In this document: piece by piece, positions 5,055 to 36,322 of the stretch
Numbering within the stretch: the first letter of the stretch is position 1
How the letters are laid out: every line of letters begins with the position of its first letter
Assembly (NCBI GenBank): GCA_043806975.1
Contig: JAZDGL010000050.1
Coordinates: 1-36,322, forward strand
Reading direction: 5' to 3'
DNA: 36,322 nt
Source: a bacterium
GTDB taxonomy: Bacteria; Patescibacteriota; Minisyncoccia; CAYZDR01
Notes under the pieces: generated by a model
Databases searched by the model: none
What the model was told of the DNA's origin: nothing
The model's input: the letters and a program-made list of their open reading frames with translations, nothing else
Position numbers and translations under genes: made by a program

Positions 5055-5223
5055 TATATCTCCCATAAAACAAATTTATTTTAAAATCCCTCTTAATCTC
5101 CCTTTTCAAAGGGAGAAAATATCGGAATCCCTCTTAATCTTTCTTGCTGCGTTTCGCCGAAGCCCTTGGGGCGAAGGGGGATCAAAGGGGGGAAACATCG
5201 GAATTTGTTTTGTGGGAGATATA
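5055..5223 (+). mobile_element. TATAG-type MITE copy with duplicated core and nested palindrome
   Basis: TIRs tatatctcccataaaacaaatt / aatttgttttgtgggagatata. Core atccctcttaatct...atcggaat occurs twice. The second hairpin loop holds ttcgccgaagcccttggggcgaa. Confidence 0.8.
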
Positions 5224-7583: not shown

Positions 7584-7678
7584 TATAGCTCCCGCAAAAT
7601 AAATTTATTTACAAAACCCCCTTCAATCCCCCCTTATTAAGGGGGGAAAATATCGGAATTTATTTTGCAAAAGCTATA
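7584..7678 (+). mobile_element. TATAG-ended MITE, minimal 95-bp copy
   Basis: TIRs tatagctcccgcaaaataaatt / aatttattttgcaaaagctata. Core aaaacccccttcaatccccccttattaagggggg. Confidence 0.82.
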
Positions 7679-11985: not shown

Positions 11986-12054
11986 TTAGTATATTACCGA
12001 ATTTATTCTTTATTGGCAACAGCAGTGGAAGTAGGAGGAAAGATAGCCCTTATA

Positions 12055-12108
12055 TGTCATCCCGACCGAGCTTCGCCTGTATTCAGGCGGAGGCGAGTGG
12101 AGGGATCC
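12055..12108 (+). repeat. TGTCATCCCGAC..GGAGGGATCC palindromic repeat (half element)
   Basis: Near-identical to 33517-33570. Confidence 0.85.
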
Positions 12109-14705: not shown

Positions 14706-15953
14706 CTATAATAGCGGGCAAACATTGATATTGGCGTCTGTTTCCACTTCCCACGGTTTGCGGGTCGCTTCTTGGCGGTGAAAATATCCAGCGACTGCGA
14801 TCATCGCGGCGTTGTCTGTGCAAAATTGCAATGGGGGAACGGAGAATTTTATTTCGGGGAAAGTATTTTTTATTTTTGCGGCAAGTTGAAATCGCAGCTG
14901 GGAATTTGCGGCGACCCCGCCTGCTAAAATGATTGTTTTTGGAGAAAATTTATGCGCCGCCTTAATTGTTTTGGATATCAGCACTTCAACAACAGCTTGC
15001 TGAAATTCTGCGGCGATATTATTGGCTTGTGATGGCTGTAATTCTGCGCCGTTTGCGGTTTTTGCGTCTAATTCTCTTACCGCTGTTTTTATCCCGCTAA
15101 AACTGAAATCAAAATTTTTGCTTGAAATCATAGGGCGAGGAAGGCTGTAAATTCCGGGTGTTCCATTTTCTGCCGCTTTGGAAATTGCGGGACCTCCCGG
15201 GTAGCCTAAATTTAAAAGTCGCGCGGCTTTATCAAAGGCTTCTCCTACGGCGTCGTCGCGGGTCGCTCCAACAGAAATAAACTTTTTATGGTCTTTCATT
15301 AAAACCAATTCAGTATGACCTCCTGACACAACTAAGGCTAGAACTGGGAAGATTATTTCCTTTATTTCTTCTTTTTCGCGTCCTCCGAAGTCTGCTGACG
15401 CAGGAGAGGTAGAATGGCCGGGTATATTTTTAAAATCCCCCTTAGTCCCCCTTCTAAAAGGGGGAAAAATTAAGGATATTCCCTTTAAAAAGAGGGTAGA
15501 TATATTTCTAGGCTCTTCCTTTATTTCCCCCTTTGTAAAGGGGGTAGGGGGATTTTCTATCCAATTTGCGTAAATATGTCCTTCAATATGGTTAACTCCG
15601 ACAATTGGTTTCTCCCAAACATAAGAAAGTGTTTTTGCTGCGCTTGTTCCAACCAAAAGCGCAGGGATCAACCCCGGTCCGCGCGTAACCGTAATTAAAT
15701 CTATATCTTTTATTTTTATTGCAGATTTTTGCAAAGCTTCTTCCAAAACCGAAGTTATGTTTTTTGTATGTTCGCGAGCTGCTAAATTGGGGATTATCCC
15801 TCCAAATTGAGAGTGCAAGCCTACTTGACTAGAAACGATATTTGATAAAATTTCAAAATTAACCGATTCCTCGGGTTCTGTTGTTGTCGTTTCTGCTTTT
15901 AAAACTGCTGCTGCGGTTTCATCGCAAGATGTTTCAATCGCTAGAATTATCAT
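14706..15953 (-). CDS. tsaD: tRNA threonylcarbamoyltransferase TsaD, with a repeat-derived in-frame insertion
   Basis: ILAIETSCDET, HIEGH, VSGGHT, DDAVGEAFDK, FSFSGIKTA, CTDNAAMIA. Confidence 0.97.
   Translation of the reverse strand: MIILAIETSCDETAAAVLKAETTTTEPEESVNFEILSNIVSSQVGLHSQFGGIIPNLAAREHTKNITSVLEEALQKSAIKIKDIDLITVTRGPGLIPALLVGTSAAKTLSYVWEKPIVGVNHIEGHIYANWIENPPTPFTKGEIKEEPRNISTLFLKGISLIFPPFRRGTKGDFKNIPGHSTSPASADFGGREKEEIKEIIFPVLALVVSGGHTELVLMKDHKKFISVGATRDDAVGEAFDKAARLLNLGYPGGPAISKAAENGTPGIYSLPRPMISSKNFDFSFSGIKTAVRELDAKTANGAELQPSQANNIAAEFQQAVVEVLISKTIKAAHKFSPKTIILAGGVAANSQLRFQLAAKIKNTFPEIKFSVPPLQFCTDNAAMIAVAGYFHRQEATRKPWEVETDANINVCPLL
15432..15556. mobile_element. Intragenic palindromic doublet inside tsaD
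   Basis: Perfect 11-bp terminal IR aaaatccccct / agggggatttt. Same end pair as the intergenic 27566-27856 element. Confidence 0.85.
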
Positions 15954-21912: not shown

Positions 21913-21985
21913 GCGCGCATAGCTCAGTCGGCAGAGCAACAGCCTTTTAAGCTGATGGTCGAGGGTTCAATTCCCCCTGCGCGCA
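21913..21985 (+). tRNA. tRNA-Lys(UUU)
   Basis: Acceptor gcgcgca/tgcgcgc, D-arm agctcagtcggcagagc, anticodon loop cTTTtaa read as ct-TTT-aa, T-loop ttcaatt. CCA not encoded. Confidence 0.92.
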
Positions 21986-21999
21986 CAATTTTTGTCAAA

Positions 22000-22286: not shown

Positions 22287-22292
22287 ATAATT

Positions 22293-22325
22293 TCCCCCTT
22301 TAAAAAGGGGGATTAAGGGGGTTTT
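22293..22325 (-). repeat. C-tail + hairpin unit (reverse orientation)
   Basis: tccccctttaaaaagggggattaagggggtttt. Confidence 0.8.
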
Positions 22326-22349
22326 TAAATAAGTTAATAGGAAAAATTT

Positions 22350-22760: not shown

Positions 22761-22833
22761 GCGCTCATAGCTCAATCGGCAGAGCAGGGGCCTCTTAAGC
22801 CCAAGGTTGGGGGTTCAATTCCCTCTGGGCGCA
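22761..22833 (+). tRNA. tRNA-Lys(CUU)
   Basis: gcgctcatagctcaatcggcagagc, anticodon loop ct-CTT-aa, ggttcaattcc. CCA not encoded. Confidence 0.92.
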
Positions 22834-22866
22834 CAGACTAGTTTTAATGTTATGAAGCAAATAAAA

Positions 22867-22925
22867 ATAGCTGCCGCAAAACAAATTTATTTTAAAATCC
22901 CCCAGCCCCCTTTTTAAAGGGGGAA
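22867..22925 (+). repeat. One-ended TATAG MITE copy
   Basis: atagctgccgcaaaacaaatttattttaaaatcccccagccccctttttaaaggggg. Second TIR absent. Confidence 0.78.
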
Positions 22926-22967
22926 GTAAAAATATTTTATTCTTGTTTTATTCGGGATGGAAAATTA

Positions 22968-27565: not shown

Positions 27566-27856
27566 AAAATCCCCCTACCCCCTTTAAGAAAGGGGGAAAA
27601 ATAATTTCCTGTTTAAGAATTTTTCCTTTAAGAGGGGGGGAATGCTGTTAAGATATTTTTTCTATAAAGTCGAATTTCTTCCCTTTCCTTAGGAAGGGGA
27701 AAATAAAAAAAGAAATTTCTTCCCCCTTTTTATAATAAGAATTAAAGTATTCTTTCCCCCCCCTTGCAAATAAAGGTATTCTTCCCACTTTTTGTAAATA
27801 AGAATTAAAGCATCCTTTCTTTTCCCCCTTTTTAAAGGGGGATTAAGGGGGATTTT
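27566..27856. repeat. Expanded palindromic doublet/array of CCCCCTT..AAGGGGG units
   Basis: Terminal IR aaaatccccct / agggggatttt. Several degenerate internal units and a repeated aataagaattaaag. Confidence 0.82.
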
Positions 27857-27876
27857 ATTTTACAAAGGATTTCAAT

Positions 27877-29635: not shown

Positions 29636-29778
29636 GGGCGGACATGAGTGTCCGCCCAGGTCGGGGCGTTAATTATTTTTTGAAGATGTAATTTTGAGCG
29701 TAGAGAAGAATGTTCAAAATATATCTTAATTTCGGTTTATCTCTACACTTAGGGCAGACACATAGGTCTGCCCCTACA
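29631..29778. repeat. Inverted GTAG REP doublet (REPIN-like)
   Basis: tGTAGgggcggacatgagtgtccgccc ... gggcagacacataggtctgcccCTACa. Confidence 0.82.
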
Positions 29779-29797: not shown

Positions 29798-31804
29798 ATG
29801 TTTAAACTGAAATCACAATTTGCGCCGAGCGGCGATCAGCCGAAGGCGATTGAAGAGCTGGTAAAGGGGCTGGAATCCGGGATGGATTTTCAGACGCTTT
29901 TAGGCGTGACGGGATCAGGGAAAACATTTACGATGGCGAATGTGATTCAGCGGGTTCAAAAGCCGACCTTGATTATCGCGCACAATAAAACGCTTGCGGC
30001 ACAGCTAGCAAGCGAGTTTAGGCAGTTTTTCCCGGAAAATGCGGTGGAGTATTTTGTGTCTTACTATGATTATTATCAGCCAGAAGCGTATTTGCCGTCA
30101 TCCGATACCTATATAGAAAAGGAATCTCAAATAAACGAAGAGATTGATCGTTTGCGGCACGCGGCGACTGCGGCAGTGATGAGCAGGCGCGATGTTATTA
30201 TCGTTGCGTCGGTTTCGTGTATTTACGGCTTGGGCTCGCCTGAATTTTATAAAGATATAACTTTGCAGATTGAAAAAGGCGAAAAAGTTAATCGTGAACA
30301 AATTGCGCGCCAGCTTACAAAAATGCATTATACGCGAAGTGAAGTTTTGGAGCGTGCGCGATTTCGCATTCACGGGCCGATTTTAGAAATTGTCCCGCCG
30401 GATAAAGAAATCGTGTGGCGAGTTGAATTAGGAGAAGGGGATGTTGTTGAGGAGATCTCGCAGAGAGATTTATTCGCAACCCCCTCCGACTCCCCCTTGC
30501 CAAAGGGGAGAGAAAGAGGGGATGCGCAGGGCAGGAGCGATTTGGATAAAATTATTATCTATCCCGCCAAGCATTTTATTGTTCCAGAGCCTGTAATGGG
30601 CGGAGCGATTAAGGAAATAAAAAAGGAATTGGCGCAAAGACTAAAACAATTTGAAAAAGAGGGGAAGCTTTTGGAGGTGGAACGGTTGGAACGGAGGACG
30701 AATTATGATACTGAAATGATGAAAGAAATCGGCTATTGCAATGGGATTGAAAATTATTCCCGATATTTAACTAACCGCAAGCCGGGCGAACCGCCTTTCA
30801 CTTTGCTGGACTATTTTCCAAAAGATTTTTTGACGATAATTGACGAATCGCATGTTACAGTTTCGCAAGTCGGGGCGATGTTTGAAGGAGATAAATCTCG
30901 TAAAAAAGCCTTAATTGAACACGGGTTCCGTCTGCCGTCCGCAGCAGATAACCGCCCGCTTAAATTTAATGAATTTGAAGAGCGGATCGGGCAGGTGATT
31001 TTTACTTCTGCGACTCCGGCTAAATATGAGCGCGAAAATTCCCGCCAAACGGTGGAACAAATTATTCGTCCGACAGGTTTGGTTGATCCTGAGGTTATTT
31101 TGAAACCGCTTAAAAATCAAGTTTCCGATGTGATTGAAGAAATAAAAAAGCGCGCGGATAAAGATGAGCGCGTGCTAGTGACGACTTTGACTAAAAAAAT
31201 GGCGGAACAGTTAAGCGAATATCTTGTGGAGGCGGGAGTGAAATCTAAATATCTGCATAGCGAAGTGGATACGCTAGATAGGATCCGTATTTTAAAAGAG
31301 TTGCGGCAGGGCAAATTTGATTGTCTTGTTGGGGTGAATTTACTCCGCGAAGGGTTAGATTTGCCGGAAGTTTCTTTGGTGGCAATTTTGGATGCGGATA
31401 AAGAAGGATTTTTGAGGAGTGAAACTTCTTTGATCCAAACAATTGGTCGCGCGGCGCGAAATATAAGCGGAAAAGTGATTTTGTATGCGGATAATATCAC
31501 GGGATCAATGCGCAGGGCGTTAGATGAAACTGATCGCCGTCGTGAAATTCAGATCGAGCATAATAAAAAGCATAACATTACGCCGCAGTCTATTAAAAAA
31601 TCTATAGAATCTATTATTGATTATGAAATTAGTCAGGAAAAACCGTTAGCGGAATTTGTAAAGCTGGAAAGCATTGAGGATTTGCCGAAATATATTAAAC
31701 AGCGGGAGCGCGAAATGAAACTGCTTGCCAAAGCGCTGGATTTTGAAGGTGCGGCATTGATTAGAGACGAGATAAATCAACTGAGAAAAATAAAAAGCGG
31801 CTAA
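29798..31804 (+). CDS. uvrB: Excinuclease ABC subunit B
   Basis: GVTGSGKT, YYDYYQPEAY, IDESH, NLLREGLDLPEV, QTIGRAARN. Confidence 0.98.
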   Translation: MFKLKSQFAPSGDQPKAIEELVKGLESGMDFQTLLGVTGSGKTFTMANVIQRVQKPTLIIAHNKTLAAQLASEFRQFFPENAVEYFVSYYDYYQPEAYLPSSDTYIEKESQINEEIDRLRHAATAAVMSRRDVIIVASVSCIYGLGSPEFYKDITLQIEKGEKVNREQIARQLTKMHYTRSEVLERARFRIHGPILEIVPPDKEIVWRVELGEGDVVEEISQRDLFATPSDSPLPKGRERGDAQGRSDLDKIIIYPAKHFIVPEPVMGGAIKEIKKELAQRLKQFEKEGKLLEVERLERRTNYDTEMMKEIGYCNGIENYSRYLTNRKPGEPPFTLLDYFPKDFLTIIDESHVTVSQVGAMFEGDKSRKKALIEHGFRLPSAADNRPLKFNEFEERIGQVIFTSATPAKYERENSRQTVEQIIRPTGLVDPEVILKPLKNQVSDVIEEIKKRADKDERVLVTTLTKKMAEQLSEYLVEAGVKSKYLHSEVDTLDRIRILKELRQGKFDCLVGVNLLREGLDLPEVSLVAILDADKEGFLRSETSLIQTIGRAARNISGKVILYADNITGSMRRALDETDRRREIQIEHNKKHNITPQSIKKSIESIIDYEISQEKPLAEFVKLESIEDLPKYIKQREREMKLLAKALDFEGAALIRDEINQLRKIKSG

Positions 31805-31822
31805 TTATGAGCCGCTTTTTTT
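31793..31822 (+). terminator. Intrinsic terminator, probably bidirectional
   Basis: aaaagcggct-aattatg-agccgcttttttt. Confidence 0.75.
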
Positions 31823-31857
31823 GTGGGCCTGTAAGTCCACAAATTATTTAATCCAAT

Positions 31858-32049
31858 CTACTCCTCCTTTTCTTCGACAGTTTTCCAAATTTTGGAATTA
31901 GAGAAGAGCCAAAAACTGAGCGTCAAGTGGAAAAAAATTGAAAAAATATTTTTTTCCATTCCCAGCGCGCGAATGAAAAAAGCCATACTTAAAAAAAATA
32001 GTATGGAGTGAACGCAGAAAAAAACAGCTTTATCAAAAATTTTTTTCAT
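31858..32049 (-). CDS. Small 2-TM membrane protein
   Basis: AAGGAGG Shine-Dalgarno before the ATG, two hydrophobic stretches. Confidence 0.65.
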   Translation of the reverse strand: MKKIFDKAVFFCVHSILFFLSMAFFIRALGMEKNIFSIFFHLTLSFWLFSNSKIWKTVEEKEE

Positions 32050-32085
32050 TCTGTCCTCCTTATTCCACTATATTACCTGGACATA

Positions 32086-32268
32086 TTATTTCCTAACTAA
32101 TCTCAAAACCATCGCTAGAATAAGAGAAAAAAGTGTGAAAAAAATTACCCAGTAGAAACAGAGCAGAAAAAAGTTATCGTTTGATAAATAAAAACTAAAA
32201 ACACTCGCGATCAAACCGAATGTTACTCCTGATATTATTCCTGTTGTGAAATCGCCCAAAAAGCGCAT
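32086..32268 (-). CDS. Small 2-TM membrane protein
   Basis: GGAGGG SD, start 1 nt after the upstream stop, hydrophobic. Confidence 0.65.
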   Translation of the reverse strand: MRFLGDFTTGIISGVTFGLIASVFSFYLSNDNFFLLCFYWVIFFTLFSLILAMVLRLVRK

Positions 32269-32269
32269 T

Positions 32270-32470
32270 TTATTCCCCTCCCAAAACCTTTAAAAGATGC
32301 ATTATCACGAAACTAATCGTGATAATGCATAATAAAATAGTATGGACAAGGTTATTTACATTGATGTTAAGCAAGATTATTGACATCAATGCGAAGGAAG
32401 AAACTCCAATGGAAAAAATTAAAAAAAATGTTAAATTTTCTTTGATATTTCGTCTATTTCGTTCTTTCAT
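32270..32470 (-). CDS. Small 2-TM membrane protein
   Basis: ATG at 32470 after AGGAGG, basic N-terminus, two hydrophobic stretches. Confidence 0.65.
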   Translation of the reverse strand: MKERNRRNIKENLTFFLIFSIGVSSFALMSIILLNINVNNLVHTILLCIITISFVIMHLLKVLGGE

Positions 32471-32544
32471 TTTTTTCCCCTCCTGTGAATTTTTAAATAA
32501 CATCAGCATTAAATCAGTATCAATAAGACTGCAATAGCATATTT

Positions 32545-33408
32545 TTAGCAAAGAGGAGCGATTGACTTTAATCCTTCTAGCACCCCTTCTATCTCTTTGC
32601 CTTGGGCAAAGTATATACTATTTAAATTCATTTGTCTAGCCTTTGTCTTTATTTCTTCTCTTGCGTTTCCGACTAAAATTGAAGGAATCCCGCTCGCAAA
32701 AACATCTAAGTCGTTGCCTTCATCGCCAGCAAAAACGACAGAAATTTCTTCCATCTTTTGGGAAGAAGGGTTGGGGGAGGAGTCGCTCTTTCTCTCCCCC
32801 TTTATAAGGGGGAGTTGGAGGGGGTGTTCCAGCAGATATTCAATCCCTGCCAATTTAGAGATATTGTCCGCTAATATCTCTAAAATCCCCGTTTTCCCTT
32901 TTAAATCTTGGCTGTAAATTATTTTAATTTCTTTGATGCCGTTTTTTTCTAATAATTTTCGCGCTTCTTTTGTAATTTTTCCAGAATCTATTTTTAAATC
33001 CACATAAAACCCGGCTTTAAATTGGTGTTGTTTTGAATCTTCTTGAATTTTTAAATCTTTTGATTGAGATAAAATACTAATAATTTTTTCTTTATTAAAA
33101 TCTGAATTGCTGGCGGATATTTTTTGACGGTATTTTTTGTCTTCTTCCCATTTTTTGCCATTGCGGCGATAAAGTGCCGCGCCATTAAAGGGGATTAAAA
33201 AATCAGGCATCGGCAAAAGGTATTTTTCAATCGCTTCACAAGCCATTTGAAAAGTCCTGCCGGTAGGGTAGCATAAAATAAATTGCGGATTTTCTTCCAG
33301 CAATTTTCCGAATTTTTTAATGCCGTCAAAATTTGGTGTTTCAGTGGAATTTGGGATAAGCGTGCCGTCTATATCAATGGCGAGGAGAATTTTATTTTTT
33401 GTTTTCAT
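32545..33408 (-). CDS. HAD-IIB hydrolase (sucrose-phosphatase/Cof-like), with repeat insertion
   Basis: DIDGTL, TGR, SK, FAGDEGND, VGNA. The track's longer start runs through a repeat. Confidence 0.88.
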   Translation of the reverse strand: MKTKNKILLAIDIDGTLIPNSTETPNFDGIKKFGKLLEENPQFILCYPTGRTFQMACEAIEKYLLPMPDFLIPFNGAALYRRNGKKWEEDKKYRQKISASNSDFNKEKIISILSQSKDLKIQEDSKQHQFKAGFYVDLKIDSGKITKEARKLLEKNGIKEIKIIYSQDLKGKTGILEILADNISKLAGIEYLLEHPLQLPLIKGERKSDSSPNPSSQKMEEISVVFAGDEGNDLDVFASGIPSILVGNAREEIKTKARQMNLNSIYFAQGKEIEGVLEGLKSIAPLC

Positions 33409-33516
33409 TAAAAATATAATAGCAGTAAAAAAACATTGAAGCAAGAAATGAGAGACTATAAAGAAGATTAATGTGTGCAATGTCTGCGCAAAAGATTGTA
33501 ATTGCTCATTGTTTTT

Positions 33517-33678
33517 TGTCATCCCGACCGAGCTCCGCCTGTATTCAGGTGGAGGCGAGCGGAGGGATCCCTTAAATAATATGTACAAGATTTTAATTTT
33601 TTAGCAAAAATCATTAAAGAGACTCCTCCGCTCGTAATTTCTGCTTTGCTAACAGAAATTACTTCGGTCGGAGTGACA
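33517..33678. repeat. TGTCA..TGACA long inverted-repeat element
   Basis: tgtcatcccgaccgag..cgagcggaggga pairs with ctcctccgctcg..ttcggtcggagtgaca. Confidence 0.85.
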
Positions 33679-33799: not shown

Positions 33800-36322
33800 A
33801 TGGAGAAATTAGATAAAAAAATCGTTGTTCATGGAGCGCGGGAGCATAATCTCAAAAATGTTCATTTGGAAATTCCAAAGGACAAATTTATTGTGTTCAC
33901 GGGAGTTTCGGGCAGCGGGAAATCTTCCCTCGCTTTTGATACTATTTTTGCAGAAGGGCAGCGGCGCTATCTTGAAAGTTTATCGGCTTATGCGCGGCAA
34001 TTTTTAACGCAGATGGAAAAGCCCGATGTTGATTATATTGAAGGGCTTTCTCCAGCTATCTCAATAGACCAAAAATCGGCATCGCGAAATCCGCGATCAA
34101 CAGTGGGAACCGTAACGGAGGTTCACGATTATTTGCGGTTGCTTTTTGCCCGCGTTGGAACGCCATATTGTCCGCAGTGCGGCGAAGAAATTAAAAAAAT
34201 CACAATAGATGAGATTATTGATAAAATTTTAACTGATTTTGAAGGGAAGAAAATTGAAATTTTTGCTCCGATTGTGCGGGGAAGAAAAGGGGAATATCTA
34301 GCGCTTTTAAATGATATGTATAAAAGGGGATTTAGCCGGGCAATTGTGGACGGGGAAGAAGTTGACTTGCGAAGCGCGGGAACACACCCCCTCTTAACCT
34401 CCCCCTCCGGAAGGGAGAGGCAAGGAGAGAGTATTCCCTCTGGCAGGGGGAGAGATAAAACCCCTCCCGATCTCTCCTTAAAAGGGGAGAAGGCAGACGA
34501 TAAATATAAAAAGCACGATATAGACATTTTTATTGATTCTGTTGAAGTGAATGCGGATAATATTGGGCGGGCGAATGAATCAATAGAATTGGCGCTTAAA
34601 ATAGCCGATGGTTTAGTAAAAATAAAATGCGGAAAAGCGGATAAAGGCAAAGGCAAAAAAAGCGAGAATAAAAGCGAAGAGCTGATTTTTAATCAGAAAC
34701 TCACTTGTCCGCGGTGCGGAATTGCTTTTGAAGAAATAGAACCGCGGCTTTTTTCTTTCAATAGTCCGTTTGGAGCATGCCCCGATTGCAACGGGCTTGG
34801 GAGCAAGAAAAACATTGATTTAAATTTGGTGATGCCCGATAAAAATAAAACCATTCAAGAAGGCGGTTTTTTGCCTTGGACATATAAAATTAATAATTAT
34901 TATGGAAATTTAATCAAGCAAGTTTCGCAACAATACAGAATTCCGCTTAATACGAGGATAAAAGACATCCCGAAAGAAAAAATTGATATTTTGCTTTATG
35001 GATCGCCTGATGGAGAAGAGCTGTTAAAAGTGAAATATATTGTTCAGGGCAAGACATTTTATCATAATATCAAGTTTGACGGGCTTATTCCTCATTTAGA
35101 GGAGCGCTATCGTAAAACTGATTCTGATGCTGTTCGCAAGGAAATTGAAAAATATATTTCAGATAGTCCGTGTCCTGCTTGCGAAGGGGCAAGGCTTAAA
35201 AAAGAAGCCTTGCTGGTGCGGGTTGGCGGTAAAAATATCGGAGAGGTGAACCGAATGTCTGTGAATCGGGCGCGGGATTTTTTTCTTAAATTAAATTTAA
35301 CTGAACGGCAGAAGTTGATTTCGCGCAGAATTTTTAAGGAAATTGAAAATAGGCTTAAATTTTTGGAGGATGTGGGGTTAGGATATTTAACGCTTGAAAG
35401 GGCGGCGATGACTTTGGCGGGAGGAGAGGCGCAGAGAATTCGCTTGGCATCACAGCTGGGTTCGTCTTTGACGGGAGTTCTATATATTTTAGACGAGCCA
35501 TCTATCGGGCTTCATCAAAGAGACAACGGGAGGCTTTTGGACACTTTGGAGAAATTAAGGGATTTGGGGAATACAGTGATTGCGGTTGAACACGATGAGG
35601 AAACAATGCGGCGAGCCGATTGGGTGGTGGATATAGGTCCTGGCGCAGGAAAACACGGAGGGAAAATTGTCGCGTCAGGTTCGGTCAAGGAGGTGATTGA
35701 AACAGAGGGATCTTTAACGGGGCAATATCTTTCTGGAAAAGAAAAAATTGAAATTCCTGAAAGGCGCCGTCCATTGCGAAATAAAATGATTGTTGTGAAG
35801 GGAGCGCGGGAACATAATTTGAAAAATATTACAGCGGGTTTTCCAGTCGGGCTTTTTACTTGCGTTACGGGTGTTTCTGGAAGTGGAAAATCATCTTTGG
35901 TGAATGATATTTTGTATAAAGCGCTGGCGCGCCAAGTTGGGCATTCTTTGGAAAAGCCGGGGCAATTTTCAAGCATTAGCGGGTTTGAGAATTTGGACAA
36001 GGCGATTATAGTGGATCAGTCTCCAATCGGGCGCACTCCCCGCAGTAATCCAGCGACATATACGGGATTTTTTACGGACATTAGGGAAATTTTTGCAATG
36101 GTTCCTGAGGCGAAAGCGAAAGGATATTTGCCGGGGCGATTTAGTTTTAATGTTGCTGGCGGAAGGTGCGAGAATTGCAATGGCGATGGATTTTTGCAGG
36201 TGGAGATGCAATTTTTGCCCGATGTTTATATTCCATGCGATGTGTGCAGCGGAAAGCGGTATAATGCCGAAACTCTTAAAATTTGCTATAAAGGTAAAAA
36301 CATCGCTGACATCTTGAATATG
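33800..36322 (+). CDS. uvrA: Excinuclease ABC subunit A (3'-truncated, absent from the ORF track)
   Basis: GAREHNLKN, GVSGSGKSSLAFDTIFAEGQRRY, Zn fingers, LAGGEAQRIRLA, LDEPSIGLH, second Walker A. Frame is consistent to the window end. Confidence 0.98.
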   Translation, partial: MEKLDKKIVVHGAREHNLKNVHLEIPKDKFIVFTGVSGSGKSSLAFDTIFAEGQRRYLESLSAYARQFLTQMEKPDVDYIEGLSPAISIDQKSASRNPRSTVGTVTEVHDYLRLLFARVGTPYCPQCGEEIKKITIDEIIDKILTDFEGKKIEIFAPIVRGRKGEYLALLNDMYKRGFSRAIVDGEEVDLRSAGTHPLLTSPSGRERQGESIPSGRGRDKTPPDLSLKGEKADDKYKKHDIDIFIDSVEVNADNIGRANESIELALKIADGLVKIKCGKADKGKGKKSENKSEELIFNQKLTCPRCGIAFEEIEPRLFSFNSPFGACPDCNGLGSKKNIDLNLVMPDKNKTIQEGGFLPWTYKINNYYGNLIKQVSQQYRIPLNTRIKDIPKEKIDILLYGSPDGEELLKVKYIVQGKTFYHNIKFDGLIPHLEERYRKTDSDAVRKEIEKYISDSPCPACEGARLKKEALLVRVGGKNIGEVNRMSVNRARDFFLKLNLTERQKLISRRIFKEIENRLKFLEDVGLGYLTLERAAMTLAGGEAQRIRLASQLGSSLTGVLYILDEPSIGLHQRDNGRLLDTLEKLRDLGNTVIAVEHDEETMRRADWVVDIGPGAGKHGGKIVASGSVKEVIETEGSLTGQYLSGKEKIEIPERRRPLRNKMIVVKGAREHNLKNITAGFPVGLFTCVTGVSGSGKSSLVNDILYKALARQVGHSLEKPGQFSSISGFENLDKAIIVDQSPIGRTPRSNPATYTGFFTDIREIFAMVPEAKAKGYLPGRFSFNVAGGRCENCNGDGFLQVEMQFLPDVYIPCDVCSGKRYNAETLKICYKGKNIADILNM

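What the first reader, a model, noticed from the sequence alone, without database searches (positions are those of the whole stretch)
30479..32825. The same 40-bp insert in uvrB and the HAD gene is translated in different frames
Seen: uvrB 30479-30518 (accccctccgactcccccttgccaaaggggagagaaagag) and HAD minus-strand 32825-32786 (accccctccaactcccccttataaagggggagagaaagag) match at 35/40 positions ungapped, with differences mostly in the hairpin loop. They encode TPSDSPLPKGRER and HPLQLPLIKGERK respectively. This is direct evidence that the conserved entity is nucleic acid, not peptide.
Basis: seen in the sequence. Interest (0 to 1): 0.7.

Follow-up and report, generated by a model that had tools for sequence, protein, structure and literature searches.

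The report
Selfish DNA hairpin translated inside genes
A 40-base GC-rich DNA repeat that litters this tiny bacterium's genome also sits inside intact genes such as uvrB, where it is read in whichever frame it landed and adds a floppy loop: a known kind of selfish-DNA behaviour, here shown by a different kind of repeat.

Summary
Confirmed. Window 30479-30518(+) and 32786-32825(-) match at 35/40 positions; the best of 100 codon-shuffles was 26/40. Both lie in frame, in uvrB and in a HAD-IIB phosphatase gene. They are offset by one base relative to the codons and give TPSDSPLPKGRER and HPLQLPLIKGERK.

The closest homologues lack these segments: 13-15 aa in UvrB, about 21 aa in HAD.

The core belongs to a genome-wide family of three-block GC-rich repeats (a C-block followed by a hairpin). 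There are 40 strong copies. Twenty lie in 17 ORFs with Pfam domains, on both strands and in at least two frames per strand. Counting looser relatives, 24 genes are affected.

The architecture matches BoxC/PIT/TMECO 'intrastrand triplex motifs'. The behaviour matches Rickettsia palindromic elements. The homopyrimidine/homopurine blocks leave most frames free of stops, which explains why several frames are tolerated.

The family is greatly expanded here: 114 pattern matches against 0-6 in each of 60 relatives. Both DUF559 nuclease genes of the genome are bracketed by copies.

This scan reported the same phenomenon before, in this genome (pyrG, alaS) and in other CPR genomes. Translation across the insert, triplex formation and the mobilising enzyme are inferred, not shown.

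The parts
29798..31804 (+). uvrB, 668 aa, host gene of copy 1
   Evidence: ORF. Pfam UvrB, UvrB_inter, Helicase_C, UVR. PDB UvrB chains at E down to 4e-253.
30479..30522 (+). Three-block repeat in uvrB. Block 1 is CCCCCTCC, followed by the hairpin CTCCCCCTT/AAGGGGAG and the purine tail. Here a fourth block, GAGGGGA at 30516-30522, pairs with block 1. Encodes TPSDSPLPKGRERG.
   Evidence: RNA fold is a nested hairpin, -30.6 kcal/mol, z -4.9. The segment is absent from the two 80%-identical homologues (13 and 15 aa gaps), from 14 of 14 relatives' UvrB and from PDB UvrBs.
32545..33408 (-). HAD-IIB / sucrose-phosphatase-like hydrolase gene, 287 aa as called in the protein database. The mechanical ORF runs to 33588. 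Host gene of copy 2.
   Evidence: Pfam S6PP and Hydrolase_3. NCBIfam HAD-SF-IIB above its cut-off. The model matches PDB 1s2o.
32755..32825 (-). Inserted segment in HAD, about 21-23 aa. The 40-nt core is at 32786-32825 and encodes HPLQLPLIKGERK. It is followed by about 25 nt of C-rich sequence of unclear origin.
   Evidence: Alignments with homologues and with 1s2o, where query 196-218 faces chain 174-175. In the AlphaFold model residues 199-221 are coil and 202-217 have pLDDT below 50, while the rest is confident, mean 89.4.
33800..36322 (+). uvrA (runs off the window), a third host gene
   Evidence: Pfam UvrA_DNA-bind and UvrA_inter. PDB 2r6f at E 0.
34367..34480 (+). Insert of about 37 aa in uvrA made of repeat modules: a strong copy at 34386-34425 and a weaker one at 34453-34493. 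It splits the UvrA_inter domain.
   Evidence: family D1; query 190-227 unmatched between chain residues 205 and 207.
14706..15953 (-). tsaD, 415 aa, carrying two AT-flanked copies of the same superfamily in frame at 15428-15468 and 15524-15560
   Evidence: Pfam TsaD in two stretches.
5079..5119 (+). Intergenic copy of the superfamily. Others in the window: 7609-7649, 22291-22327, 22894-22933, 27566-27605, 27805-27857.
   Evidence: the repeat finder families D1-D3. Genome census.

Best explanation
The 40-nt core is one unit of a dispersed, non-coding DNA repeat family. Each unit has a C-rich block (CCCCCTCC), a 3-nt spacer, a GC-rich hairpin (CTCCCCCT-loop-AGGGGGAG) and a purine tail (AGAGAAAG). 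This is the block layout published for bacterial 'intrastrand triplex motifs' (BoxC / PIT / TMECO).

The family has multiplied in this one lineage and copies have landed everywhere. Inside genes, the only copies that persist are those that add a multiple of three bases, carry no stop in the host frame, and sit in a tolerant loop. There they are simply transcribed and translated as a short disordered Pro/Leu/Ser/Gly/Lys/Glu/Arg loop.

The blocks are homopyrimidine or homopurine, so stops can arise only in the spacer and the loop. The same DNA can therefore survive in several frames and on either strand. That is why uvrB and the HAD gene read it differently.

What is shown: the family exists, it is a DNA-level family, the segments are absent from homologues, copies occupy several frames and both strands, and the HAD insert is modelled as a loop.

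What is inferred: that the segments arose by insertion, that they are translated, and that they are near-neutral.

More tentative (about 0.4): the copies are spread by, or together with, the small DUF559 (PD-(D/E)XK, Vsr-like) nuclease genes that they bracket.
For: Family and expansion:
- The regex census finds 36 copies and nhmmer finds 40 at E<=4e-7.
- A looser three-block pattern gives 114 matches in this genome against 0-6 in each of 60 relatives and 0 in the three same-family genomes. The reversed control gives 0.
- The strict pattern gives 23 matches here and 1 match in 1 of 60 relatives.

Host genes are real:
- 17 of 17 ORFs have Pfam families, and 7 of 7 further ORFs carrying looser copies do too.

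The segments are extra sequence:
- UvrB. HAD. UvrA.
- TrmD and AlaRS against same-family orthologues.

Frames and strands.

Freedom from stops:
- A mean of 4.62 of 6 frames are open per copy, and 11 of 40 copies are open in all six. Random 40-mers of the genome average 3.29, and 2% are open in all six.

Loop character:
- In the HAD model the insert is coil with pLDDT below 50 inside a fold of mean pLDDT 89.4 that still matches sucrose phosphatase 1s2o.
- The UvrB site aligns to B. caldotenax residues 229/230. This lies within the segment V227-D239 that a B. subtilis UvrB paper describes as remodelled between crystal forms (passages read).

DNA identity with intergenic copies.

No frame-breaking copies:
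- The ORFs flanking 4 of the 20 copies outside genes were examined. In none of the 4 did they look like halves of one gene: one pair belongs to different families, and in the other three only one flank had any Pfam match, so a split is unsupported rather than excluded there.

The same motif sits inside conserved genes in other phyla:
- 7 of 29 long ORFs have Pfam domains on both sides of it.

DUF559:
- Both DUF559 genes of the genome are bracketed by strong copies. The copy upstream of one gene is preceded by a duplicate of that gene's last 13 nt.
- In relatives, a detector that does not depend on the family's exact sequence finds 11 elements within 200 bp of DUF559 (3,600 bp searched). It finds 0 in 21,399 bp farther out and 0 in 101,724 bp of control loci.
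Against: - No empty-site allele, target duplication or near-identical insert-free orthologue was found. Insertion is inferred from homologues no more than 80% identical.
- The HAD loop carries a different insert in 4 of 9 homologues. The site may be a pre-existing variable loop that was overwritten.
- Translation through the insert is inferred from intact frames only.
- Frame use is uneven. None of the 11 same-strand hairpins starts at codon position 2, and 7 of 9 opposite-strand copies share one frame. Pure neutrality does not predict this.
- The triplex reading is architectural only. Exact direct copies of the hairpin arm upstream are nearly as common as mirror copies (113 vs 157, 53 vs 69 and 6 vs 7 for arms of 6, 7 and 8 nt), because the blocks are nearly self-symmetric.
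- The UvrB model is poor (mean pLDDT 54.9) and cannot bear weight.
- DUF559 loci in G001, G002, G018 and G022 (5 of 11 loci) have no such elements nearby. Bracketing could also mean that the gene targets the repeats rather than moves them.
Confidence: 0.8

Rival explanations
1. The element has a function as nucleic acid inside genes. Examples would be a DNA structure (hairpin, cruciform or triplex) that paces replication or transcription or promotes recombination, or an mRNA hairpin that pauses ribosomes. On this view it is kept for that reason and not merely tolerated.
For: Strong predicted hairpin in uvrB, z -4.9. Intragenic copies are as well conserved as intergenic ones. The block layout equals that of motifs shown to form triplexes in vitro and linked to local genome instability (PMC4666352, sections 15, 16 and 18 read). 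Many host genes act on DNA or RNA.
Against: Host genes, sites, strands and frames are heterogeneous. The closest orthologues do without the insert. The HAD and uvrA copies fold no better than shuffles, z -1.4 and -1.2. Earlier work cited in PMC4666352 found no promoter or terminator activity for PIT elements (passage). Good conservation is equally explained by a recent burst.
Confidence: 0.12
2. The encoded peptides are adaptive protein modules, for example new interaction loops on UvrA and UvrB, and selection acts on the protein.
For: The UvrB insert lies in the UvrA-binding domain 2 and the UvrA insert lies in the UvrB-binding domain. Frame use is skewed towards LPL..GE and SP..GR readings.
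Against: The same DNA gives unrelated peptides in different genes. Identical DNA occurs between genes. The insert is modelled as disordered. The closest relatives lack it.
Confidence: 0.04
3. The element is removed or skipped before the protein is made (intron-like excision or translational bypass), so the frame in which it lies is irrelevant.
For: GC-rich hairpin elements that ribosomes bypass are known in yeast mitochondria and phage T4 gene 60 (recalled, not checked here).
Against: All 20 intragenic strong copies keep the host frame open and in register on both sides. That would be unnecessary if they were removed. None of the 4 checked copies outside genes looks like a frame-breaking insert, although only one of the four flanking pairs had Pfam matches on both sides. 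No Rfam family reaches its threshold on the region; the best is Pab91 at 26.7 bits against a gathering score of 71.
Confidence: 0.02
4. Assembly artefact: repeat copies were spliced into the genes by the metagenome assembler.
For: The genome is a 75-contig draft rich in repeats.
Against: The inserts are in frame, flanked on both sides by homologous coding sequence in one contig, and differ from one another in loop and tail. The same pattern is seen in 17-24 genes and in independent assemblies of other phyla.
Confidence: 0.02

Closest known systems
BoxC / PIT elements / TMECO intrastrand triplex motifs (Holder et al. 2015, PMC4666352; abstract, sections 15, 16, 18 and passages read)
   Same: On the G-rich strand the layout is the same. 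It reads C-stem, loop of 3-6 nt, G-stem, 3-nt loop (TTG here; TTA or CCG in TMECO), second G-block. Both are G/C-rich, have many near-identical copies, show a patchy distribution among close relatives, and have no associated transposase.
   Different: The stem sequence differs (CTCCCCCT against CCCTCNCCC). TMECO is stated to be always intergenic in E. coli K-12, whereas half of the strong copies here lie inside genes. Triplex formation is untested for this sequence.
Rickettsia palindromic elements, RPE (Ogata et al. 2000, as described in PMC3184786 and PMC10969869; passages read)
   Same: Palindromic repeats found both between genes and in frame inside many unrelated housekeeping genes of a small genome, thought to be tolerated as surface segments.
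   Different: RPEs are about 105-150 bp and each is said to encode a conserved peptide. Here the unit is about 40 nt, is read in several frames and on both strands, and has a three-block layout. Sequence relatedness was not tested.
REP elements and RAYT (REP-associated tyrosine transposases); GTAG-/CGTC-tagged palindromes (PMC3733652, search listing and abstract only)
   Same: Short GC-rich hairpin repeats in high copy number. This genome has two Y1_Tnp genes, and one best matches the RAYT model.
   Different: The element of the finding has no GTAG or CGTC tag. A second, separate family in this genome does (GTAGGGGCGGAC..GTCCGCCC) and is the likelier RAYT partner.
MITEs such as RUP / IS630 derivatives
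   Same: Non-autonomous and abundant. A sister subfamily of the unit (CCCCCTTCAAT-TCCCCCTT..AAGGGGGA-AAATATCGGAATTT) sits inside longer intergenic repeats with inverted ends.
   Different: The intragenic units show no terminal inverted repeats or target duplications. No DDE_3 transposase was found in the 87%-complete assembly. The MITE-borne subfamily is never in genes, 0 of 56.

Membership tests
Intrastrand triplex motif (ITxF criteria of Holder 2015: three consecutive blocks, stems 6-15 nt, loops 1-6 nt) | Three consecutive blocks: a hairpin plus a third block repeating one arm | tested here: met
   124 copies fit C-run/spacer/C-run/loop/G-run. The bases flanking the runs co-vary as (C,C,G) in 30 copies and (T,T,A) in 26. 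A detector with exact 6-nt arms finds 157 in the genome.
Intrastrand triplex motif | The third block is the mirror image of the arm (the Hoogsteen rule), not a direct copy | tested here: inconclusive
   Mirror against direct upstream copies: 157 vs 113, 69 vs 53, 7 vs 6 for arms of 6, 7 and 8 nt. The blocks are nearly self-symmetric. In the uvrB and HAD copies, mirror fits 7/7 and direct 6/7 (read).
Intrastrand triplex motif | Loop lengths within 1-6 nt | tested here: met
   The spacer between the blocks is 3 nt once the paired flanks are counted (CAA or TAA), and hairpin loops are 3-6 nt.
Intrastrand triplex motif | Forms a triple helix (CD, NMR, footprinting) | not testable with these tools
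   No tool computes triplex stability.
TMECO / BoxC proper | Consensus CCCTCNCCC N3-6 GGGNGAGGG N3 GGGNGAGGG | tested here: not met
   The stem here is CTCCCCCT/AGGGGGAG. The published pattern was read.
TMECO / BoxC proper | Intergenic location | tested here: not met
   20 of 40 strong copies lie in long ORFs. E. coli TMECO is 'always located intergenically'.
Rickettsia palindromic elements | Palindromic repeat inserted in frame in many unrelated genes | tested here: met
Rickettsia palindromic elements | Unit of about 105-150 bp encoding one conserved peptide | tested here: not met
   The core is about 40 nt and the inserts are 39-114 nt. There are at least four peptide readings.
Rickettsia palindromic elements | Sequence homology to RPE families | not tested
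REP / RAYT system | GTAG or CGTC tag at one end of the palindrome | tested here: not met
   The core begins (C/T)A-CCCCC. The tag is present in a different family of the genome.
MITE | Terminal inverted repeats and target-site duplication | tested here: inconclusive
   None is evident in aligned flanks of 36 copies. The exact ends are unknown because no empty site is available.

The most novel reading that the evidence does not exclude
The three-block repeats and the small DUF559 nuclease gene together form a so far undescribed kind of mobile unit. The gene, flanked by the repeats, would be the autonomous form. The solo repeats would be its non-autonomous offspring, copied into new sites through nuclease-induced repair. 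Because they are nearly free of stops in all frames, they can colonise essential genes across bacterial phyla. This would give BoxC/PIT elements, unexplained since the 1990s, a mechanism. It would also make them a general source of new protein loops.
Probability: 0.3. Interest if true: 0.75.

Novelty: new variant of a known kind. Interest (0 to 1): 0.45.

Why it matters
- It shows directly, within one 2.3-kb stretch, that a housekeeping protein can carry a piece of repeat DNA whose protein sequence does not matter. The same bases are read as two different peptides.
- For annotation, extra loops in proteins of ultra-small bacteria (24 genes in this genome) should not be read as adaptive domains.
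- For repeat biology, BoxC/triplex-type repeats are described in print as intergenic, but here they behave like Rickettsia palindromic elements.
- The tight bracketing of DUF559 nuclease genes gives a bench-testable candidate for how these repeats spread.
- In-frame inserts in UvrA, UvrB, UvrD, RecG and PriA also offer natural permissive-site maps of these enzymes.

Tried and rejected
- **Read support and expression.** The look-up of sequencing runs listed only two DNA contig sets, each with 0.06 of the sampled words, and no RNA holder. When laid, no contig bridges either insert. X1 has two perfect 151-nt pieces elsewhere in uvrB. Nothing follows about assembly or expression.
- **UvrB structure model.** The result is poor (mean pLDDT 54.9, pTM 0.34). 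The insert is coil between strands 216-224 and 247-249, but low confidence is not specific to it.
- **Rfam.** Only sub-threshold chance matches on the region.
- **Mirror against direct control.** It does not separate a triplex rule from simple reiteration of the block.
- **IS630-type transposase (DDE_3).** Not found in the assembly, which is 87% complete.
- **Fourth block.** A block that would make the unit a full palindrome is present in only 8 of 40 copies by a loose test, including uvrB. It is not part of the canonical unit.
- **Split-gene check.** The neighbours of 4 of the 20 copies outside genes were checked and none looks like a split gene. Only one pair had Pfam matches on both sides. 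The other 16 were not checked.
- **First frame anchors.** Two scripts failed. The anchor used was unreliable and was replaced by alignment to the HAD copy.
- **Not used.** The metagenome-contig scan, complex prediction, the protein-representatives search and the third homologue search.
Full report
**1. The observation**

They are listed as inverted pair I7, 40 nt and 88% complementary. They match at 35 of 40 positions without gaps. Four of the five differences lie in or beside the hairpin loop. In 100 codon-shuffles of both genes, the best 40-mer identity never exceeded 26. A 23-nt hairpin pattern has 4 matches in the window against 0.00 expected in 100 shuffles.

The uvrB ORF is 29798-31804(+). 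The HAD ORF is 32545-33588(-) when read mechanically, but the gene call in the protein database is 287 aa, so it probably starts at 33408. The first base of the element is codon position 1 in uvrB and codon position 2 in HAD.

**2. Both segments are extra sequence in real genes**

uvrB:
- It has the full set of UvrB Pfam domains and aligns end to end with solved UvrBs.
- The two closest database homologues are 80% identical overall and lack 13 and 15 residues exactly here.
- None of 14 relatives' UvrB genes has the segment.
- The site falls after B. caldotenax Leu229, in domain 2. It lies within the stretch V227-D239 that a B. subtilis UvrB paper reports as remodelled between crystal forms (PMC3458569, passages).

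HAD:
- The protein is a HAD-IIB, sucrose-phosphatase-like hydrolase.
- Against Synechocystis sucrose phosphatase 1s2o, residues 196-218 face two residues of the chain.
- Of nine homologues aligned, four have no insert, one has about four residues, and four carry a different insert in the same loop.
- An AlphaFold model is confident overall (mean pLDDT 89.4). Residues 199-221 are coil between helix 185-194 and strand 222-228, and 202-217 have pLDDT below 50.
- The model's best structural match is still 1s2o (E 2.8e-20).

The UvrB model was too poor to use.

**3. What the core is**

The contig is the whole of contig 50 of a 670.5-kb, 75-contig, 36.9% G+C genome. Names on homologues point to Patescibacteria (CPR), among Moranbacteria and Parcubacteria-like relatives.

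The core recurs throughout the genome as (C/T)A-CCCCCTCC-AAC-TCCCCCT-loop-AGGGGGAG-AGAAAG:
- 36 copies by regex.
- 40 copies by an nhmmer profile at E<=4e-7.
- It is one subfamily of a larger set of 124 three-block units.

A sister subfamily, CCCCCTTCAAT-TCCCCCTT..AAGGGGGA-AAATATCGG, lies in longer intergenic repeats with inverted ends. It is never found in long ORFs, 0 of 56.

The bases flanking the C- and G-runs change together between subfamilies: (C,C,G) in 30 copies and (T,T,A) in 26.

I read the paper (PMC4666352: abstract, sections 15, 16 and 18, and passages). The published pattern is C-stem, N3-6, G-stem, N3, G-stem. That is the same layout as the G-rich strand here, with a different stem sequence.

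My control shows the mirror rule cannot be told apart from direct reiteration, because the blocks are nearly self-symmetric. The triplex itself therefore remains a resemblance in layout, not a result.

In uvrB, a fourth block pairs with the first and gives a nested hairpin (-30.6 kcal/mol, z -4.9). The HAD and uvrA copies do not fold better than shuffles.

**4.

Of the 40 strong copies, 20 lie in 17 ORFs of at least 200 aa with at least 15 codons on each side. All 17 ORFs have Pfam families: a PMT-type glycosyltransferase, TrmD, a GH1 glycosidase, DUF559, a MiaB-like radical-SAM enzyme, PyrG, LeuRS, TatD, RecG, PriA, UvrD, a DHH phosphoesterase, another radical-SAM protein, AlaRS, UvrB, the HAD protein and UvrA.

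The DUF559 case is doubtful, because the copy probably lies upstream of the true start.

Strand and frame:
- Eleven copies have the C-rich strand as sense. The hairpin arm starts at codon position 1 in six, position 3 in five and position 2 in none.
- Nine copies are on the other strand, split 7/1/1.

Counting looser members adds seven more Pfam-validated genes: an FtsJ/TlyA-type methyltransferase, TGT, a GT4 glycosyltransferase, KsgA, an N6 DNA methylase, PrmC and TsaD. The total is then 24.

Within this window, four genes are affected: tsaD, uvrB, HAD and uvrA. The uvrA insert is about 37 aa and is built from several modules.

**5. Why several frames are tolerated**

A homopyrimidine or homopurine block cannot contain a stop codon in any frame. 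Only the spacer and the loop can.
- The strong copies have a mean of 4.62 of 6 frames open, and 11 of 40 are open in all six.
- Random 40-mers of the genome average 3.29, and 2% are open in all six.

**6. Age and spread**

- The strict pattern has 23 matches here and one in 1 of 60 relatives.
- The loose pattern has 114 matches here, 0-6 in each relative and none in the three same-family genomes.
- Same-family orthologues of TrmD and AlaRS lack the inserts.
- The HAD copy shares exact stretches of 36 and 39 nt with intergenic copies.
- Copies in genes score like copies outside genes.

All of this fits a recent burst in this lineage.

These include Bacteroidales, Gallionellaceae, Gemmatales, Nitrospirae, Vibrio and several CPR groups.
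- In the 80 loci fetched, 59 of 81 matches are complete three-block units.
- Of 29 long ORFs that span a match, 19 have Pfam families. In 7 of these a domain, or two domains of one enzyme, lie on both sides of the unit: CbiD, EPSP synthase, poly(A) polymerase, MnmA, a HisA/F-type barrel, peptidase M3 and LigA.

**7. A candidate partner**

Earlier notes of this scan on other genomes propose that such repeats bracket DUF559 nuclease genes. I tested this here.

In this genome:
- There are two DUF559 genes, and strong copies lie on both sides of each.
- On contig 40, the copy downstream of the gene starts 3 nt after the stop codon. The upstream copy is preceded by a duplicate of the gene's last 13 nt.

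In 60 relatives:
- DUF559 occurs in 7. Three of these are among the five relatives with any loose-pattern match. By my own arithmetic this is a hypergeometric P of about 0.009, and related genomes are not independent.
- A detector that ignores the family's exact sequence finds 11 elements within 200 bp of DUF559 (3,600 bp). It finds none in 21,399 bp farther out in the same loci and none in 101,724 bp of control loci.
- Six of 11 DUF559 loci are bracketed on both sides and five have none.

Elsewhere:
- Two of the 80 cross-phylum loci also hold a DUF559 homologue, and one of them is bracketed.
- The protein matches PDB 3hrl, an 'endonuclease-like protein'.
- No paper in the library holds both 'DUF559' and 'triplex'.

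Bracketing fits a nuclease that spreads the repeats. It fits equally a gene that homes into them.

**8. Comparison with what is known, and verdict**

In-frame palindromic repeats in housekeeping genes are known from Rickettsia (RPE) and a few other repeats (PMC3184786 and PMC10969869, passages).

Triplex-type repeats are known, but TMECO is described as intergenic in E. coli. The main text of PMC4666352 never uses 'intragenic', 'in-frame' or 'open reading'. A search for Patescibacteria with repeat, in-frame, insertion and palindromic listed no paper that mentions Patescibacteria among its top 12.

This is therefore a known behaviour shown by a known architectural class that has not, to my searches, been reported to behave this way. 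The scan itself has already reported it for pyrG and alaS of this genome and for at least eight other genomes.

The added value is the full frame and strand table, the explanation from freedom from stops, the loop mapping, and an independent test of the DUF559 lead.

Noticed in passing
window 29636-29657 and 29752-29773; G000 contigs 15, 27, 35, 37: A second, unrelated hairpin repeat family is present: GTAG-tagged, REP-like, GTAGGGGCGGAC..GTCCGCCC. It has 16 copies, and 5 lie in ORFs of at least 200 aa (two in trmD, one in tatD). It is read as GGHAGPPL or VGADLC(I/V)R depending on strand. One more copy lies inside the RAYT-like gene itself. Two copies sit just upstream of uvrB.
   Followed up: partly
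G000 C37:18653-18988 (L163:1405-1986, minus strand) and C7:3641-3802: Two Y1_Tnp genes. The first best matches NCBIfam 'REP-associated tyrosine transposase' (53 bits, below its cut-off of 80). It lies next to tatD.
   Followed up: partly
window 30479-30522 and 34367-34480: The UvrB insert lies in the UvrA-binding domain 2, and the UvrA insert splits the UvrB-binding domain (UvrA_inter). Whether the two loops come near each other in the UvrA2B2 complex was not examined.
   Followed up: no
L007 (G000 C37:11137-14097): The leucyl-tRNA synthetase carries a NUDIX domain (Pfam PF00293, residues 414-533, E 5e-13) between its editing domain and the second half of the catalytic domain. This is an unusual fusion.
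   Followed up: no
window 33512-33570 and 12050-12108: A 59-nt repeat, 92% identical between the two places, lies in the region upstream of the probable HAD start codon. It is a third repeat family (D11).
   Followed up: no
homologues P0122, P0123, P0126, P0127 of the HAD protein: Four of nine homologues carry a different shared insert (RGASI...IATRQSRDIQ.SP) in the very loop that holds the repeat here. This suggests a hot spot or repeated invasion.
   Followed up: no
homologues P0007, P0009, P0026 of UvrB: Other CPR UvrB proteins carry Pro/Gly/Ser/Arg-rich inserts of 17-42 aa at two other sites (for example CPPLPAGEGLGVRE...). These look like repeat-derived loops of other families.
   Followed up: no
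genome-wide, 20 intragenic strong copies: One of the three frames of the hairpin, the one that would read Pro-Pro...Gly-Gly, is used by 0 of 11 same-strand copies. In other phyla PPPTPP readings do occur, in 6 of 30. The cause is unknown: selection against polyproline, or an insertion bias.
   Followed up: partly
window 32719-32845 in run X2: In a groundwater metagenome, contigs at 85% likeness or more cover the bin holding the HAD repeat (summed depth 12.3). They do not cover the bins on either side (0). This suggests the repeat occurs in other organisms of that sample.
   Followed up: no
window 21913-21987 and 22761-22835: Two 75-nt tRNA-like sequences, 83% identical and 848 bp apart, each near repeat copies (D7). 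Not run through the tRNA finder.
   Followed up: no
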